This document shows, one piece after another, positions 24,001 to 30,000 of a stretch of 64,000 bases of DNA (position 1 is the first letter of the stretch; every line of letters begins with the position of its first letter). Position numbers: made by a program. Source of the DNA: Syntrophales bacterium (lineage in GTDB: Bacteria > Desulfobacterota > Syntrophia > Syntrophales > UBA6807); NCBI GenBank assembly GCA_040767195.1, contig JAXGPA010000006.1, forward strand, positions 75,084-139,083, given 5' to 3'.

Positions 24001-27000
24001 TGGGCCGTGTACATGACGCAGAAGGTCCCGCCCATGCAGATCCCCATGAGGTGGAGATGGGACACGCCGTGTTTTTTCAGGACGAAGTCGACCATGTCGT
24101 TCATGTAGCCGTTGATGTGGTCGTCCAGGGTCAGGTACCGGTCCTTCCGCGTGGCGTACCCCCAGTCGATCATGTATATTTCCAGGCCCGCCTGGAGAAA
24201 GGTCTCCACGACGCTCCGCCCCGGCTGGAGATCGAGCATGGTTTCCCGGTTCACCTGGGCATAGACGATGAAGAGGGGGAAATTGTAGCGCACTTCCTCC
24301 GGCCGGTAGTGCTTCAGCTGGACCCGGTCGTCCTCGTAGACGACCTCGTAGGGAGTCTTGGCGATGTCCGTCTTCAAGGGGCTGAGAAGGACTTCCCGGG
24401 CCTCCCTCATCCGCTCGGCCATCTTGATCGGTTCAACGGCCATCCTGGAAGCGAGAAGGTCCATGGTCATGCCCATCGGGCTGCTTTTGCGACCGGCCGT
24501 TTTATCGTTTTTCATGACCCCTTTCCCTCCTTTCGAGCGCTGTCAACCGCTTCTTGATCCTGTAGAGATCCTTGTACACCTCGTCCATTTCCCGGTTTGT
24601 CGGGATGGGAAGATCCTGGAGGAGGTCGATGAGAAACTGCTGCCGGACCTTCCGGTACTCGTAGAGGGCCTTCAGGGTCTCCCGGAGCGTGTCGATGTAA
24701 TCGGGCGACCGGAGCATGTCCAGGTATCTCTTTTCGAGTTTCCCGATCCAGGTCCGGTACCAGGCCCGGGGATCCTCGAGAATTTCCGCTTTCTTCCCCT
24801 CGCCGGAGAGCATTTCCTCCTCCATCATGAGGACCGACTCTTCGATGGGGGCATAGAAAAGGTGGGCGAAATCCATGAGCCGGCCCCGGAAGGCCTGGAA
24901 ACGGTCGACGGTCAGGTTGAGGCGCTCCTGGTAATAGCGCATCAGGCCGAGCTGGGGCAGGTTGAGGTATTTCCGCATTTCCTCCTCGTAGGAGCCGAAC
25001 CAGGCCCGGGATACCTTCCGGAAGAATTCAGAAATGTCCTCGAAGCTCTTTTTTCGCTCCTCCGACGCGGGCGGCGAAAAGGAGGCCAGCTGGTTCCACA
25101 GGGGTTCCATGATCTTCAGGGCCATTTCGGGAATAGCCCCCGACGGGGCGTCACCCGAACCCTGAAGGCTCCGGAAATAGGCCTGCCAGAACTGGTCGAA
25201 GGCCGCCCGGGGGTCTTCGCCGGCTCCCGGCTTCTTCCGGTCCGCCGTTCCCGCTTCACTGTCGGCCCCGGGAAAGCCCTGCCCCTCGGCGGCGGTCTTC
25301 ATGACCCCGAACCACAGGTTGGCCGTCGATTCCCAGAAGTCGAGAGAGGCCCTCGTCAAGGACTCCAGGGGTTCGTTTTCCCCGCGGCCTCGTTCACGAT
25401 CCTTTTCCGTCATGATTTTTTCCCCCTTCCCTCTTTCTTTTTCGTTTCCCCGCTTTTTTCACGCCTGTCCCGCGAGGCGCTCTCGAAGGCGGCGACATAG
25501 GATTTCATCAGTTCCTGGAACTGTTCCGTCTGGCGCGTCATGAGATCCTGAACGCCCTGGACGACCTCGTCCCGGGAGGCGTTTTCCCACCCCGCTTCCC
25601 CGCGGAGGCGTCCGATGACCGCCTCCTGCTCCGCCACCTTTTCCTTCAGCCGCGCGCATTCCTCGGCGAGCTTCCGGTACTCCTCCCGGGGAACCATCCC
25701 CATGAGGTTCATGTATTCCTCGTAGGATTTCCGGAAATTCCGCAGGGCCTCTTCCCAGGCGTCACCGCCCCCTTCTTCCGGGGCCGGTTTCTCCTTGAGA
25801 CCGTAAATTCCGGCGAGAAGATTCCCGAACTCCTGGAAGCCCTGGAACCCCTGCTCAATCCACCGGTTGAAGTCTTCCACCCGCCGCTGTCCTTTCGCGG
25901 CGGACAGGAGGACATTCCCCCAGAACTCGAGAAACCTGCTGTCCATGCCGGTCACCTCTTTCAAGCCGCTTTCCTCGGGGTTGGCCTGCCCTTCCCGGCC
26001 GGGCCCGCCGCCTCGAGATCGAGGTGGAACCGGACGGGACCCCGGTATCCTTCTTTCCCGAAAACGGTGTGAAGGGCGCATTCCGAGGTGGGATTGGACC
26101 AGGATGTGGCGATGGCGCCGTGCCCCCGCGGGAAAACGGTCACCTCGACGTCGATGTACTTCCGCGGCGCCAGGGCGGCCTCGGGGTTAACCAGGTCGTC
26201 CTTGGCGGCGTAACACAGGAGCCACGGGATGTTCCTCTCCGGGATTCCCTTGAAATTCAGCGTTTTTCCGAAAAGCTTGACCGGAAGCGTCCCGTCCGGG
26301 GTAACGGGAACCGTGTAGGAGTCGAAACTGAGCTGGGTGATGCCCCTGGGCAGGTCGTTCCTCTCGTACATGAGCCAGTGATTCAGGGCCGCGGCGGTTT
26401 TGCTGACCTTCACTTCGCTGTCGTCGGGCCGGTCGAACATCATGAGATCCCGGTAAAAGGTGTGAATGGGGGATTCCTTGTCCATGCTCTTCAGCTTGTA
26501 CACCCAGCTCATGACCTTGCCGTCCACGACCTCCCCGACGCCGGGGAGGGCCTTGAGGGCATACCCCAGGTCCCGGAAGCGCAGGGGAATGTGCTCGAGA
26601 TACTCGACCAGGGACTGGCTTTCCGTTCCGTCCATGGGGGCGACGCAGGTGACGAGGGCGTCCACGAGGCCGTCGAGCTCACCGGAAAGAATGTCCAGGA
26701 CGGCCATGAATCCGCCCTGGCAGAAACCGTTCAGGGTGACCGGCCGGCCGTGCCTTTTCATGACCGTTTCACAGAAAAGCCGGGTGTCCCGGGCGTCGTC
26801 TTCGCCTGTCATGACCGCGAGGGCGGGCGTCACAGCCACATCCTTCATGATCCGGATGTAGGTGGGAGTACCCTGGTTGGCGAAGGCATGGGTGTAGCTT
26901 TTCCCTTCCCCGGGCAGAAAAGCGAGGATGTTCGCCCCGAGCACGTACGGGGGGATGATAACCACGGGCTTGCCGTCTTCCCGTGACGTGACGGCGGGGT

Positions 27001-30000
27001 CCGTGGGAAACACCCGGTAGAGAATGAACCGGTCCGTTTCCGCCACCCGCTCGTAGCCGCCGTTTTCGAAATGAAACCCGAACTCGGAGGCGATGTTCCG
27101 GATCTCGCGGCTGTAATTGTACACCAGTTCCTCGAAGATCTTTGCCTTTCTTTCCGAGTAGGCCAGGATATCCGGGCCTTCCGTCCCGGTGCAGGTGTTA
27201 AGCAGCGCCGTGAAAGCTCTCGCCCATTCCCTGGCATGGTATTCGTTGACGGAACGGATGGTGCTTAAAAGCCCTGTTTTGGCGATCTGGAGGTTGAAAT
27301 AAAAAAGCTCAAGATAGTCACGGGCCGTGTCTTCCGGGGCATGATCGCCGATCTTGACCTTTTCCATGGCCTGAAAGGATTTCAGGGCCACCCAGAAAGG
27401 TTCCATGAAATCGAAGTAATACTGCCAGAGCCCGTTGATGCAGGTCTGAGATGCCTTGACCTGCTCGAATGCCGCAAGAACGGCCTTCCTGTTCAGGTCG
27501 GTCATCTTCTCCTGAAACCGGAGAACCTCTTCCGCCACTTCCATGGGAACCATGCCCCTTTCCATACGCCTTCCCTCTTCTTATCCTTCCTTGGGAAAGA
27601 AGGTCTCGACGCGCTTGAAGTTCTCATCCACCGTCTTCTTGAAGGCATCGAAGCCGGTCCGGTAGAGCTTCGACCACTCGGTGATGGCCTTTCTTCTCTC
27701 CGCGTCCCTGCCCGTCGCCTGGGTCAGGTACATGTCAATGACTTTCTCCATCTGCTCCTGGATCATGGTCATGGTGGAAAAAGCGCTGTCAAAAGTCGCC
27801 TTGTTCATGTCGATCATCTGTTTGAGGGTTTTTCTCGAATCCATTGTCGGTCTCCTTTCCTGAAACCTTTTCCTTTTCTACTTTTTTTCCTTTTCTTCCG
27901 TGGCGAAGTACCGGTCCAGCCGGGCGAAACTCTCGTCAACGGTCTTCTTGAAATCCTGGCTGCCCTTCTTGTAGGCGTTTACCCAGTCCCGGACCGCCTT
28001 TTTCCCTTCCTCGGGAAATCCCGCGGCCTGGTCGAGGTACATGTCCATCATCCTCTGGGACTGCTCCTGAAGCATGGACAGGCCCTTGAACGAGTTCTCG
28101 AAGGTCGACCGGTAAAAATCCAACGTCTGCTTGGCCATTTTCTTGGGATCCATGTGAATCACCTCCATTTATTTTGTAAATCTGAACCTGAATATAAACC
28201 CCGTTTTGACCCTTGTCAAGATATTTTTTTTGCATTGCAACATTTTTTCTCCCGAGTCGCCGTGATTAAAATAAAATGAGTTATTAAAAGAAATTATTGT
28301 TGCAATATTTTTTCAAATTGGTTACAAGTTTCAGAATTGATATTGCAATGAAGCAATAATGAGCGGGCGGTGTTGCCCCGGCGGGCATCGAGCCCCTTCG
28401 CTTGAGAAATCGGGGAGCAAAGGATGGAAGAGACCCTGACCATAAAGAAGTACAGCAACCGCCGTCTTTACGACACGGAGGAAAACAGCTACGTGACCCT
28501 GGCCCGGGTGGCGGAGAGGATAAAGGACGGTCGGCGCGTGGAAGTCGTCGACGCCCGGACGGGGGAGGACGTCACCGCCGGCACCCTGACCCAGATTCTC
28601 GTCGAAGAGGCGAGGAAAAACAACGTGCTCCTGCCCGTCCCCGTCCTTCACCTGTGCATCCAGTTCGGAGACACCGTGCTCCAGGAATTTTTCGGGAAGT
28701 ATCTTCAGCACGCCATTCGAGGCTATCTCGCCCACAAAGCCGCCGTGGACGAACAGTTCGGGCAGTGGCTCGAGTTCGGGAGCGAACTTGCCTCCCCGTC
28801 CGCGAAAACCGTCAACCCCCTGGAGGTTTACGCCCCCTTCCTGGATTTTCTGAAGGAAATGACATTTCCCGGGGCGGCCGATAAAAAGGAACAAAAAAAT
28901 AAAAAGTAACACCACCGGGTCCTCCACGCGGGGTAGCGGGCGTGCCGATTCATTCGGGACAGGCCTTTTTTCACGGGGACGGGTTTTCTCCCTTGGCAAG
29001 TGGGAAAAAACCGATTCCGGGACAGGCCATAAGTTTTCCATGTCCCTTGACAGATGAAAGAATTCGTCGTATTTTTGAACGGATTCACAGGAAAACCGAA
29101 GGGGGGGAGCCATGAAAAAAGATGAAAAGAAAGAAATGAAAAAGGCGACCTACGAGAAGCCCGTCCTGACAAAATTCAAGAAACTGACGGACGTGGTGGC
29201 AGGCGAATCGCCACAGACAGGGCCGATATAGCCGGGTCTGGGTTGCACAAGATTTTAGAGAGGGGGCCATGAAGGAACACCGAAAAGAGAAAAAAGAGGA
29301 AAAGAAGGTCTACGAAAAACCCGCGCTGATCCGGCACGGTAAGCTGGGCGATATGACGGGAGGCCCTGTATACAACGGGTTTGAGGAGCTGGAGTGAATT
29401 AAACGCGGCAACGGGTACTTCCTTTGTCTTGACAGGTTTCGGCCTTTCTTTTCGGCTTCAAGGGGTAAGGGGTCGGACCAAGATAACCTGTTCATATGTC
29501 AGGATATACCTCCCCAAAAAGGCTGTTTTCAGGCCTTAGAAGTGCCTTTTCATACCCGGAATCAAGCTTGTAAGACAAAAAGGGCTCCTGAACAGGCCTC
29601 TCCCTCCCCGCCAGGAACCGAATCACTCTCACGGTCCCTCGATGCCCAGGCGCTTCCTGACGTTTTCTCGAAATTCCGGGCTGTCTGCCGAGACGCTCTC
29701 CAGCGGGAAGCCCTGCCTCTCAAAGCCGCCCCCGGGCGATGGTTCGAGATCGCTGCAGGGTTGCCATCCATTTCCGCCAAATCCAATGTATCCCCTTCCC
29801 CGAATGACCGACGACTCCGGCACGGACCATGTTCAGGTCAACATAAAGAAGGAACGCAATGGACGTCTGTGAAAAAATGAGTGAGATCGCACTTTACGCT
29901 CTGTCGACATGACCCGGTCAAGGGTGTGGTTCCCGTTGAGGACGCCGCCATCCGCTCTCCGGGACATCCGGCCGAGGCCTGCAGCAGCCTGACACAAATT

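What a model noticed while it worked through the whole genome (the two positions that open the first line are those of the whole stretch)
25410..27565. An unannotated PhaC-like Cys-Asp-His enzyme with a small partner inside the PHA gene cluster
g02031 (534 aa, C10:101044-102648; no Pfam, NCBIfam or Swiss-Prot row; relatives are labelled hypothetical or 'metal transporter') is a very divergent polyhydroxyalkanoate-synthase-like alpha/beta hydrolase: an N-terminal helical domain plus a catalytic domain with an invariant lipase-box Cys (G280-F-C282-Q-G-G), Asp456 and His482. With the 184-aa coiled-coil protein g02030 it forms a conserved gene pair between two phasin-like genes (g02032, g02033), a PhaR-like regulator (g02034) and the canonical class III phaE-phaC (g02029, g02028), GAF and MaoC/PhaJ genes. 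I propose a second, so far undescribed PHA-granule enzyme of Desulfobacterota: a new PHA synthase class, or a thiol PHA depolymerase [...]
Evidence so far: AlphaFold2 model pLDDT 79.9, pTM 0.79. Foldseek PDB ranks 1-14 are all PhaC structures (A. caviae full length 9knj/9knk/9knl, E 6e-12, 504-541 aligned columns; Chromobacterium 5xav/6k3c; C. necator 5hz2/5t6o), 13-17% identity. Only sequence hint: TIGR01836 class III PhaC 24.5 bits against a cut-off of 365. In 29 aligned relatives (57-78% identity) G280, C282, Q283, G284, G285, D456, H482 are invariant. At least 2100 database relatives. In 60 loci of 9 kb or more from other Desulfobacterota genomes: g02030 homologue beside it in 53, phasin-like 56, PhaC 51, PhaE 45, PhaR-like 48, GAF 46, MaoC 41; the g02031-g02030 pair keeps its order where phaEC is inverted.
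(Added by a program. Inside this text positions count along the whole contig: contig position 75,084 is position 1 of the stretch shown here. "Call 12" and the like, gene names such as g00115 and contig names such as C1 are that model's own, and its searches are not shown. The text may have been shortened before it was handed on; [...] marks where a part breaks off. The agent that wrote the report below was given it as the finding of a first reader that could run no searches.)

Follow-up and report, generated by a model that had tools for sequence, protein, structure and literature searches.

The report
Overlooked PHA synthase-like enzyme lineage
This gene, often mislabelled 'metal transporter', encodes a distant relative of the bioplastic (PHA) polymerase PhaC; because some related bacteria keep it with the granule-coat and regulator genes but have no ordinary polymerase, it is probably an unrecognised kind of PHA synthase, which has not been tested.

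Summary
Observation confirmed. g02031 (X, 534 aa) has the PhaC fold (Foldseek, VIA Z 27-30, PDB profile hits all PhaC) and an invariant Cys282/Asp456/His482 triad in 61 relatives down to 23% identity. It scores far below every PhaC and PhaZ model and forms its own clade. It lies in a tightly packed phasin-phasin-X-Y-phaE-phaC gene run, behind a conserved PhaR-type operator. New here: in 79 genomes of one order, phaR and the phasin-like genes track X (27 of 27), not canonical phaC (0 of 19 phaC-only genomes). Eleven X genomes have no detectable canonical phaC. Nine of these loci keep a thiolase, and 8 of the 11 genomes hold a patatin-type candidate depolymerase. That favours X as a synthase (about 0.6) over a thiol depolymerase (about 0.25). 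The partner g02030 (Y) does carry a weak, reciprocal PhaE-box similarity, but remote Y homologues also sit beside phaEC without X. No activity data; absences rest on draft genomes and linked genes. The scan noted what is probably this family before on other DNA (e1-3332104, e1-3872916). New variant of a known kind.

The parts
25961..27565 (-). g02031 (X): PhaC-fold Cys-Asp-His enzyme; three long N-terminal helices (about aa 8-160), alpha/beta core with cap (aa 161-520)
26720..26722 (-). codon for Cys282, nucleophile in the G-F-C-Q-G-G lipase box
   Evidence: 61/61; aligns with the lipase-box Cys of 5xav
26198..26200 (-). codon for Asp456 (first D of K-D-D-L-V)
   Evidence: 61/61; aligns with the Asp of E-D-H-I-V in 5xav
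26120..26122 (-). codon for His482 (G-H motif)
   Evidence: 61/61; aligns with S-G-H of 5xav
25410..25946 (-). g02030 (Y): 178-aa all-helical protein with a PhaE-box-like segment (about aa 56-115); stop overlaps the phaE start by 4 nt
27581..27844 (-). phasin-like gene 1 (87 aa)
   Evidence: Phasin_2 E 0.023, below cut-off; position behind the operator
27878..28168 (-). phasin-like gene 2 (96 aa), 43% identical to gene 1
28191..28219 (-). sigma-70-like promoter (TTGACA-17-TATATT, 11 of 12) facing the phasin-X-Y-phaEC genes
   Evidence: consensus match only
28230..28240 (.). palindrome TTGCATTGCAA, candidate PhaR operator; the only such 11-mer in the genome
   Evidence: TGCA-N-TGCA in 44 of 69 phaR/phasin spacers against a shuffled mean of 0.16; unique in G000; fits the published GCN3GC PhaR box
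28424..28909 (+). phaR regulator, divergent
   Evidence: PF07879 E 1e-25; TIGR01848 95 bits, cut-off 109
24502..25413 (-). canonical phaE
   Evidence: PF09712 E 6e-24
23058..24515 (-). canonical class III phaC with a Lys/Ala/Pro-rich tail
   Evidence: TIGR01836 418.9 bits, over cut-off
21988..23034 (-). tandem-GAF protein that travels with phaEC
21523..21957 (-). MaoC/PhaJ-like (R)-enoyl-CoA hydratase
   Evidence: PF01575 E 3e-23

Best explanation
X is a PHA synthase of a lineage outside classes I-IV. Shown: PhaC fold, conserved triad, own clade, place in a phaR-phasin-phasin-X-Y gene block with a PhaR-type operator. Inferred from PhaC chemistry: His482, helped by Asp456, activates Cys282, which is acylated by (R)-3-hydroxyacyl-CoA with release of CoA and extends the polyester chain. 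Inferred: the N-terminal helices dimerise the enzyme or bind the granule, as in class I enzymes, and Y, with its PhaE-box-like helix, is an accessory subunit or scaffold. Inferred: as polymer appears PhaR leaves the operator and the phasins and X-Y are induced. In this genome X works beside canonical PhaEC with PhaJ supplying monomer; in genomes without phaEC it would be the only polymerase, fed by the neighbouring thiolase plus a FabG-like reductase, with a patatin-type protein as depolymerase.
For: Fold: Foldseek ranks 1-14 PhaC, E 9e-13 to 8e-10, next 4e-7; VIA Z 27.1-29.7 for seven PhaC entries, next 23.8; family profile against PDB sequences: top five all PhaC. Profile-profile: class III PhaC E 2.4e-16 over 289 columns, against 4e-7 for PhaZ-like and 3e-7 for DUF3141; W397 aligns with the conserved PhaC Trp. 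Lipase box G-x-C-Q-G-G as in several class III PhaC, unlike A-V-C-Q-P-G of the neighbouring PhaZ-like proteins. Order of G148, 79 genomes: X 27, PhaC 35, both 16, X without PhaC 11, of which 9 are at least 90% complete; genus g115 has X in 4 of 9 and PhaC in 0 of 9. PhaR is in all 27 X genomes plus one other; the phasin-like query hits exactly the 27; neither in the 19 PhaC-only genomes. Nine of the 11 X-only loci show GNAT-thiolase-GNAT-phaR-phasins-X-Y; two contigs are too short. Patatin: 8 of 11 X-only, 1 of 16 X+PhaC, 0 of 52 other genomes; the operator also precedes it in four loci. A PF06850 PhaZ-like gene already sits in 17 of 80 X loci. PhaE-box profile against 10,826 ORFs: the top 12 non-PhaE hits are Y (best E 7e-4), 21 of the top 30; the Y-box profile returns PhaE in 15 of its top 30 non-Y hits.
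Against: No activity data. X, phaR and the phasin-like genes are one linked block in related genomes, so their co-occurrence is not independent evidence. Absences rest on draft genomes and a first-look filter. Two of the 11 X-only genomes (G314, G316; 73% and 81% complete) have X in pieces, and the G360 copy did not match the G.CQGG pattern. The five X-only genomes tested gave no MaoC/PhaJ hit (no positive control in that call), and the best reductase hits of G148 and G238 are below the PhaB cut-off (257 and 273 against 302), so monomer supply is not shown. G000 has no PhaZ-like or patatin gene, which leaves X or DUF3141 as its only candidate depolymerase. X sits beside class III, class I (G149, G377) and class III/IV-like synthases (L061), as a turnover enzyme would. 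Class III PhaC is also close to the PhaZ-like family (E 6e-13), so nearness to PhaC is not diagnostic, and the tree puts X outside both groups. Y is missing after X in 17 of 70 loci, remote Y homologues lie before phaE-phaC in genomes without X, and the Y-PhaE hhalign score (E 0.0013) is matched by a reversed-self control (0.0017).
Confidence: 0.6

Rival explanations
1. X is an intracellular Cys-dependent PHA depolymerase or thiolytic enzyme, working like Cupriavidus necator PhaZa1: Cys282 attacks the polyester and hands 3-hydroxybutyryl units to CoA or water; the adjacent thiolase or PhaJ carries them on to acetyl-CoA.
For: PhaZa1 with phasin yields 3HB-CoA from granules in the presence of CoA (PMC7147478, passages). 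G000 has no other recognised depolymerase; patatin is in only 1 of 16 X+PhaC genomes of the order sample. X accompanies synthases of different classes. Distant homologues occur in records named Ca. Lloydbacteria and Ca. Woesearchaeota, one beside a thiolase-like gene (identity read from the sequence, not scanned). In the phylum sample 11 of 16 X genomes have a class III PhaC over cut-off and one more has class I; 10 of 10 further X genomes had some PhaC match.
Against: Eleven genomes in four genera keep X, phaR and phasin-like genes with no synthase found; a granule depolymerase would have no substrate there. No PF06850 or TIGR01849 hit. PhaZ-like genes coexist with X in 17 of 80 loci.
Confidence: 0.25
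2. X is a PhaC-derived acyltransferase that makes or remodels a different product (short oligomers, another polyester or a lipid body) under PhaR control, or a reversible synthase/thiolase that buffers the acyl-CoA pool.
For: Long separate branch; next structural neighbours after PhaC are gastric and lysosomal lipases (Z 23-24); phaEC-GAF exists without phasin-like genes or PhaR in 19 of 79 genomes, so two separable systems exist. Earlier scan notes describe PhaR with WS/DGAT instead of PhaC (e1-6591765; unchecked).
Against: No WS/DGAT hit in 5 X-only genomes (nothing rang in the controls either, so weak). The operator fits the PhaR box of phasin promoters. PhaC, not lipases, leads every fold and profile search.
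Confidence: 0.12
3. X is a cryptic or non-functional paralogue carried along in the cluster.
For: Silent phaC paralogues are known in other bacteria and haloarchaea (recalled). Contigs from RNA libraries do not prove transcription.
Against: Triad invariant in 61 of 61 sequences down to 23% identity; kept intact where canonical phaC is absent.
Confidence: 0.03

Closest known systems
Class III PHA synthase PhaC/PhaE (TIGR01836, PF09712; the window's own phaEC; Desulfococcus multivorans PhaEC, recalled)
   Same: Closest profile (E 2.4e-16, 25% identity over 289 columns); G-x-C-x-G-G box, Asp, His and Trp in register; followed by a small helical gene with a PhaE-box-like segment.
   Different: 24.5 bits against a cut-off of 365; 160-aa N-terminal helical domain; own clade; partner is 178 aa and not a PF09712 member.
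Class I PHA synthases (A. caviae 9knj-l, Chromobacterium 5xav/6k3c, C. necator 5hz2/5t6o)
   Same: Best structural matches (Z 27-30, rmsd 2.7-4.1 A over about 300 residues); similar length with a helical N-terminal domain.
   Different: 14-19% identity; no PhaC_N (PF07167) or TIGR01838 hit; the N-terminal domain does not superpose as a whole (Foldseek rmsd 17-21 A over full length).
Class IV PhaRC (Bacillus type, TIGR02132)
   Same: Small helical partner of similar size; the first Pfam-bearing Atlas hit of Y is a 159-aa Bacillota cluster named PhaR with PF09712 in 20% of members (score 0.83, a lead only).
   Different: TIGR02132 is not among the 25 most frequent hits of 53 Y members; X is much longer than class IV PhaC; Y lies after X.
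Intracellular Cys-type depolymerase PhaZa1 family (PF06850, TIGR01849)
   Same: Same fold family and Cys nucleophile; Q after Cys; ESM Atlas features give PHB_depo_C clusters 0.95, level with class III PhaC.
   Different: No PF06850 or TIGR01849 hit; box G-x-C-Q-G-G rather than V-C-Q-P; profile E 4e-7; separate clade; coexists with such genes.
DUF3141 (PF11339) PhaC-like proteins
   Same: Uncharacterised PhaC-fold Cys enzymes found near PHA genes (6 of 80 loci; one elsewhere on contig C10).
   Different: No PF11339 hit for X; groups with PhaZ-like proteins in the tree, X does not.

Membership tests
PHA synthases (any class) | alpha/beta-hydrolase fold with cap, closest to PhaC | tested here: met
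PHA synthases (any class) | Cys lipase box G-x-C-x-G, catalytic Asp and His | tested here: met
   C282, D456, H482 in 61/61 and in register with Cys291/Asp447/His477 of 5xav; triad geometry in the model was not measured
PHA synthases (any class) | conserved cap Trp (Trp392 in Chromobacterium, Trp425 in C. necator) | tested here: met
   W397 in 59/61, aligned to the class III PhaC Trp by hhalign; the PhaZ-like family has a Trp there too, so not diagnostic
PHA synthases (any class) | polymerises (R)-hydroxyacyl-CoA | not testable with these tools
   needs enzyme assay or complementation
Class III PhaC | TIGR01836 score over 365.3 and short catalytic subunit | tested here: not met
   24.5 bits; 534 aa with N-terminal helical domain
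Class III/IV synthases | PhaE (PF09712) or PhaR (TIGR02132) partner subunit | tested here: inconclusive
   Y is below all cut-offs but shows weak reciprocal PhaE-box similarity
Class I/II PhaC | PhaC_N domain (PF07167), TIGR01838/TIGR01839 score | tested here: not met
   no hit at E up to 1
PhaZa1-type intracellular depolymerase | PF06850 / TIGR01849 match and V-C-Q-P box | tested here: not met
   no hit; box differs; separate clade
PhaZa1-type intracellular depolymerase | hydrolysis or thiolysis of native granules | not testable with these tools
   needs assay
DUF3141 | PF11339 over cut-off | tested here: not met
   no hit for X; one of 16 distant members tested has E 0.005
Phasins (g02032, g02033) | Phasin family match; small amphipathic protein under PhaR control | tested here: inconclusive
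   sub-threshold hits only; conserved PhaR-type operator upstream

The most novel reading that the evidence does not exclude
X, probably with Y as a small subunit, is a self-sufficient fifth kind of PHA synthase that current HMM and primer screens miss. In many anaerobic Desulfobacterota it, and not the canonical PhaEC, is the enzyme tied to the PhaR-phasin granule system, so lineages scored as PHA-negative do store polyester; relatives in CPR bacteria and DPANN archaea extend the chemistry further.
Probability: 0.45. Interest if true: 0.8.

Novelty: new variant of a known kind. Interest (0 to 1): 0.66.

Why it matters
PHA synthases are sorted into four classes, and screens for PHA producers rest on those models. 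A family with at least 2100 database relatives that no model names, at 14-25% identity to known PhaC, would widen the enzyme space for bioplastic engineering and change which sulfate reducers and syntrophs are counted as polyester storers. If it is a depolymerase instead, it fills the gap of how these anaerobes mobilise PHA, since this genome has no recognised PhaZ. Either answer follows from one cheap complementation and CoA-release assay.

Tried and rejected
X-Y complex prediction gave no verdict (score 0.00, mark 0.32, partner fold uncertain, controls not folded); it is no evidence either way. The AF2 model of Y was poor (pTM 0.41) and found no fold at E up to 0.001; the Y profile hit only generic coiled coils in PDB. 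Single-sequence phmmer of X against PDB found nothing. No longer or fused forms in the word-index search (weak; one 938-aa TIR/NB-ARC-joined record, P0136, was not followed up). No X in viral contigs or plasmids. X's N-terminal domain is not a fused PhaE by hhalign (E 0.045); that domain was not folded and searched alone. G165 was set aside as an X-only case: its contig ends inside the usual maoC-GAF-phaC run. A metagenome scan for the distant clade returned one useful locus. DUF3141, PhaE, class I and WS/DGAT were searched in only 2-6 of the 11 X-only genomes each; PF06850 was not searched across the order sample. RNA-library contigs cover the operon in 4 of 4 runs from 2 studies, with pieces bridging phaE-Y-X and X-phasins, but contigs cannot show transcription, strand or level. 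'Metal transporter' is rejected: a soluble alpha/beta hydrolase model with pLDDT 93.5. The tree is a quick run with long branches and a midpoint root; 21 of 65 rows were dropped for run time. Ten paper searches listed no description of this family; the library lacks most subscription journals.

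
Full report
1. Observation. The ORF at 25961-27565 on the minus strand encodes 534 aa, here called X. 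Pfam gives nothing over a cut-off and NCBIfam only TIGR01836 at 24.5 bits against 365.3. The word-index search scored 8000 candidates and kept 2100; named ones are 'hypothetical' or 'metal transporter'. The unfiltered search found 276 clusters at 50% identity. In an alignment of 61 of these (23-77% identity) P206, C282, P310, D456 and H482 are invariant; G280, Q283, G284, G285 and W397 are kept in 58, 57, 60, 53 and 59 of 61. The downstream gene g02030 (Y) most likely starts at ATG 25946, 14 nt after X's stop, because its homologues begin there; its stop overlaps the phaE start. The two small upstream genes have only sub-threshold phasin hits.

2. Fold and family. The AF2 model (pLDDT 93.5, pTM 0.90) has three long helices over residues 8-160 and then an alpha/beta core with cap. 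All 13 Foldseek rows shown for ranks 1-14 are PhaC (E 9e-13 to 8e-10; next 4e-7). VIA-align gives seven PhaC entries Z 27.1-29.7, then gastric lipase 23.8. A profile of the family finds PhaC chains as its five best PDB sequences and puts C282, D456 and H482 on the lipase-box Cys, the E-D-H-I-V Asp and the S-G-H His of 5xav, the triad Cys291/Asp447/His477 of PMC5509742 (passages read). The 80 loci also hold other PhaC-fold families: PF06850 PhaZ-like, DUF3141, a 600-aa family and a 370-aa family. Profile against profile, X is nearest class III PhaC (E 2.4e-16, 289 columns), then DUF3141 (3e-7), PhaZ-like (4e-7) and the 600-aa family (3e-5); class III PhaC is itself near PhaZ-like (6e-13), so this ranking does not fix the function. 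In a quick tree of 44 catalytic domains X forms one group (SH-aLRT 100), apart from a PhaC group (92) and a PhaZ/DUF3141 group (96), with long branches. X works like a PhaC-family Cys enzyme but is a member of none of the modelled families.

3. Context. Of 120 related stretches in the species-genome set the best 80 were fetched. They hold phasin-like genes in 73, PhaR 62, Y 60, PhaC 50, PhaE 49, GAF 46, MaoC 41, PhaZ-like 17, DUF3141 6. Y follows X directly in 53 of 70 loci with room, and phaEC lies downstream in the same sense in 17, inverted in 20 and upstream in 7, so phaR-phasins-X-Y is the stable block. The spacer between phaR and the phasins holds TGCA-N-TGCA in 44 of 69 loci against 0.16 in shuffles. 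In the window it is TTGCATTGCAA at 28230, the only copy in the genome, 11 nt before an 11-of-12 sigma-70 match facing the phasins. It fits the GCN3GC PhaR box and phaP1 sites in PMC10888616 (passages). This is the best support that the small genes are phasins and that X belongs to the granule regulon.

4. Synthase or depolymerase. In 301 genomes of the phylum X is in 16 and class III PhaC over cut-off in 29; 11 have both. Of the other five, G149 has two class I synthases beside X, G165 ends at a contig break, G273 is 81% complete, and G148 and G238 (both 99%) have no class I or III PhaC, PhaE, DUF3141 or PF06850 hit. I then searched all 79 genomes of G148's order. X is in 27, a TIGR01836 match at E up to 1e-8 in 35, both in 16, X alone in 11 from four genera, 9 of them at least 90% complete; genus g115 has X in 4 of 9 and PhaC in 0 of 9. 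PhaR is in the same 27 plus one, the phasin-like query in exactly the 27, and neither in the 19 PhaC-only genomes, where phaE-phaC-GAF stood alone in the three loci read. Nine of 11 X-only loci read GNAT-thiolase-GNAT-phaR-phasins-X-Y. A patatin gene, mostly with a GntP-like permease, is in 8 of 11 X-only genomes, 1 of 16 with both and 0 of 52 others, and has the operator in front in four loci. A patatin is a shown PHA depolymerase in Haloferax (cited in PMC4823750, passages), though deleting the Synechocystis one had no clear effect (PMC7203880, passages). A coat, a granule-sensing repressor, a thiolase and a candidate depolymerase kept with X as the only PhaC-fold enzyme found is most simply read as X making the polymer.

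5. Results against. The block is inherited as a unit among kin, so the perfect co-occurrence is one observation, not 27. The genomes are drafts searched through a filter; G314 and G316 have X in pieces, as are some neighbours, and the G360 copy did not match the box pattern. No MaoC was found in 5 of 5 X-only genomes tested and no reductase over the PhaB cut-off in G148 or G238. G000 has PhaC, DUF3141 and X but no PhaZ-like or patatin gene. X sits beside synthases of three kinds, and all 10 further X genomes tested had some PhaC match, 8 over cut-off. Distant members occur in records named Ca. Lloydbacteria and Ca. Woesearchaeota, one beside a thiolase-like gene. C. necator PhaZa1 thiolyses PHB to 3HB-CoA (PMC7147478, passages), so a thiolase neighbour suits both directions. 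I put synthase at 0.6, depolymerase 0.25, other acyltransferase 0.12, silent 0.03.

6. The partner Y. It is all-helical and has 352 relatives among 431 candidates. Its middle segment aligns with the PhaE C-terminal box (hhalign E 0.0013, but a reversed-self control scores 0.0017). A sharper test: a PhaE-box profile run over 10,826 ORFs ranks Y as its top 12 non-PhaE hits (best E 7e-4) and 21 of the top 30, and the Y-box profile returns PhaE in 15 of its top 30. The Atlas lead is a Bacillota PhaR-named cluster at 0.83; 17 of 53 members also hit the granule-protein model TIGR01837 weakly. Remote Y homologues lie before phaE-phaC in six genomes without X and beside phasin-like genes in two. Y is thus a likely PhaE/PhaR/PhaF-type scaffold, not shown to be a dedicated subunit.

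7. Novelty. Ten searches (listings seen) showed no description of this family. [quoted passage not shown] PMC4324140, PMC5220378 and PMC9530719 (passages) did not bear on X. The D. multivorans PhaEC paper is recalled, not read. The scan has noted what is probably this family twice on other DNA (unchecked notes); the stand-alone genomes, the operator and the PhaE-box test are my own results here. Verdict: a real, widespread, unnamed PhaC-fold lineage, most likely a synthase outside classes I-IV; new variant of a known kind; interest 0.66.

Noticed in passing
window 29136-29231, 29269-29397, 33343-33471, 33482-33610, 34310-34441 (+): Five short ORFs (31-43 aa) share a Y-x-K-P-x-L...L-x-D-x-x-x-G motif that resembles lasso-type RiPP leader peptides (label recalled); the only matches to this pattern in the genome.
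   Followed up: partly
G000 C10:382-2121 (outside the window): A DUF3141 PhaC-like gene, a third PhaC-fold enzyme in this genome.
   Followed up: partly
L012:7143-8954 and 8 other loci: Another unnamed 600-aa PhaC-like family (box Y-C-M-A-G) downstream of maoC; TIGR01836 only 77-83 bits, no Pfam over cut-off.
   Followed up: partly
L114:5247-6362, L115, L053, L060: A 340-375-aa family hitting both PF06850 and DUF3141, next to phasin-like genes.
   Followed up: no
L120-L123 (G007, G331, G048, G327): phaE-phaC-GAF as a stand-alone unit; 19 of 79 genomes in that order have PhaC but no PhaR or phasin-like hit. The role of the tandem-GAF protein is unexplained.
   Followed up: partly
L081, L083, L105-L119, L124: Two GNAT acetyltransferase genes flank the thiolase next to phaR in this order, which suggests acetylation control of the pathway.
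   Followed up: no
window 23058-23400 and X homologues in 9 of 79 loci: Long C-terminal tails, often Lys/Ala/Pro-rich, on the canonical PhaC and on some X proteins, possibly nucleoid anchors.
   Followed up: no
L126:2019-5750: A distant X homologue in a record named Ca. Lloydbacteria follows a thiolase-like gene and a small OB-fold-like gene (read from sequence, not scanned).
   Followed up: partly
L097 (G260), L095/L096 (G257), L059/L061 (G306): Genomes with two X copies, tandem in G260.
   Followed up: no
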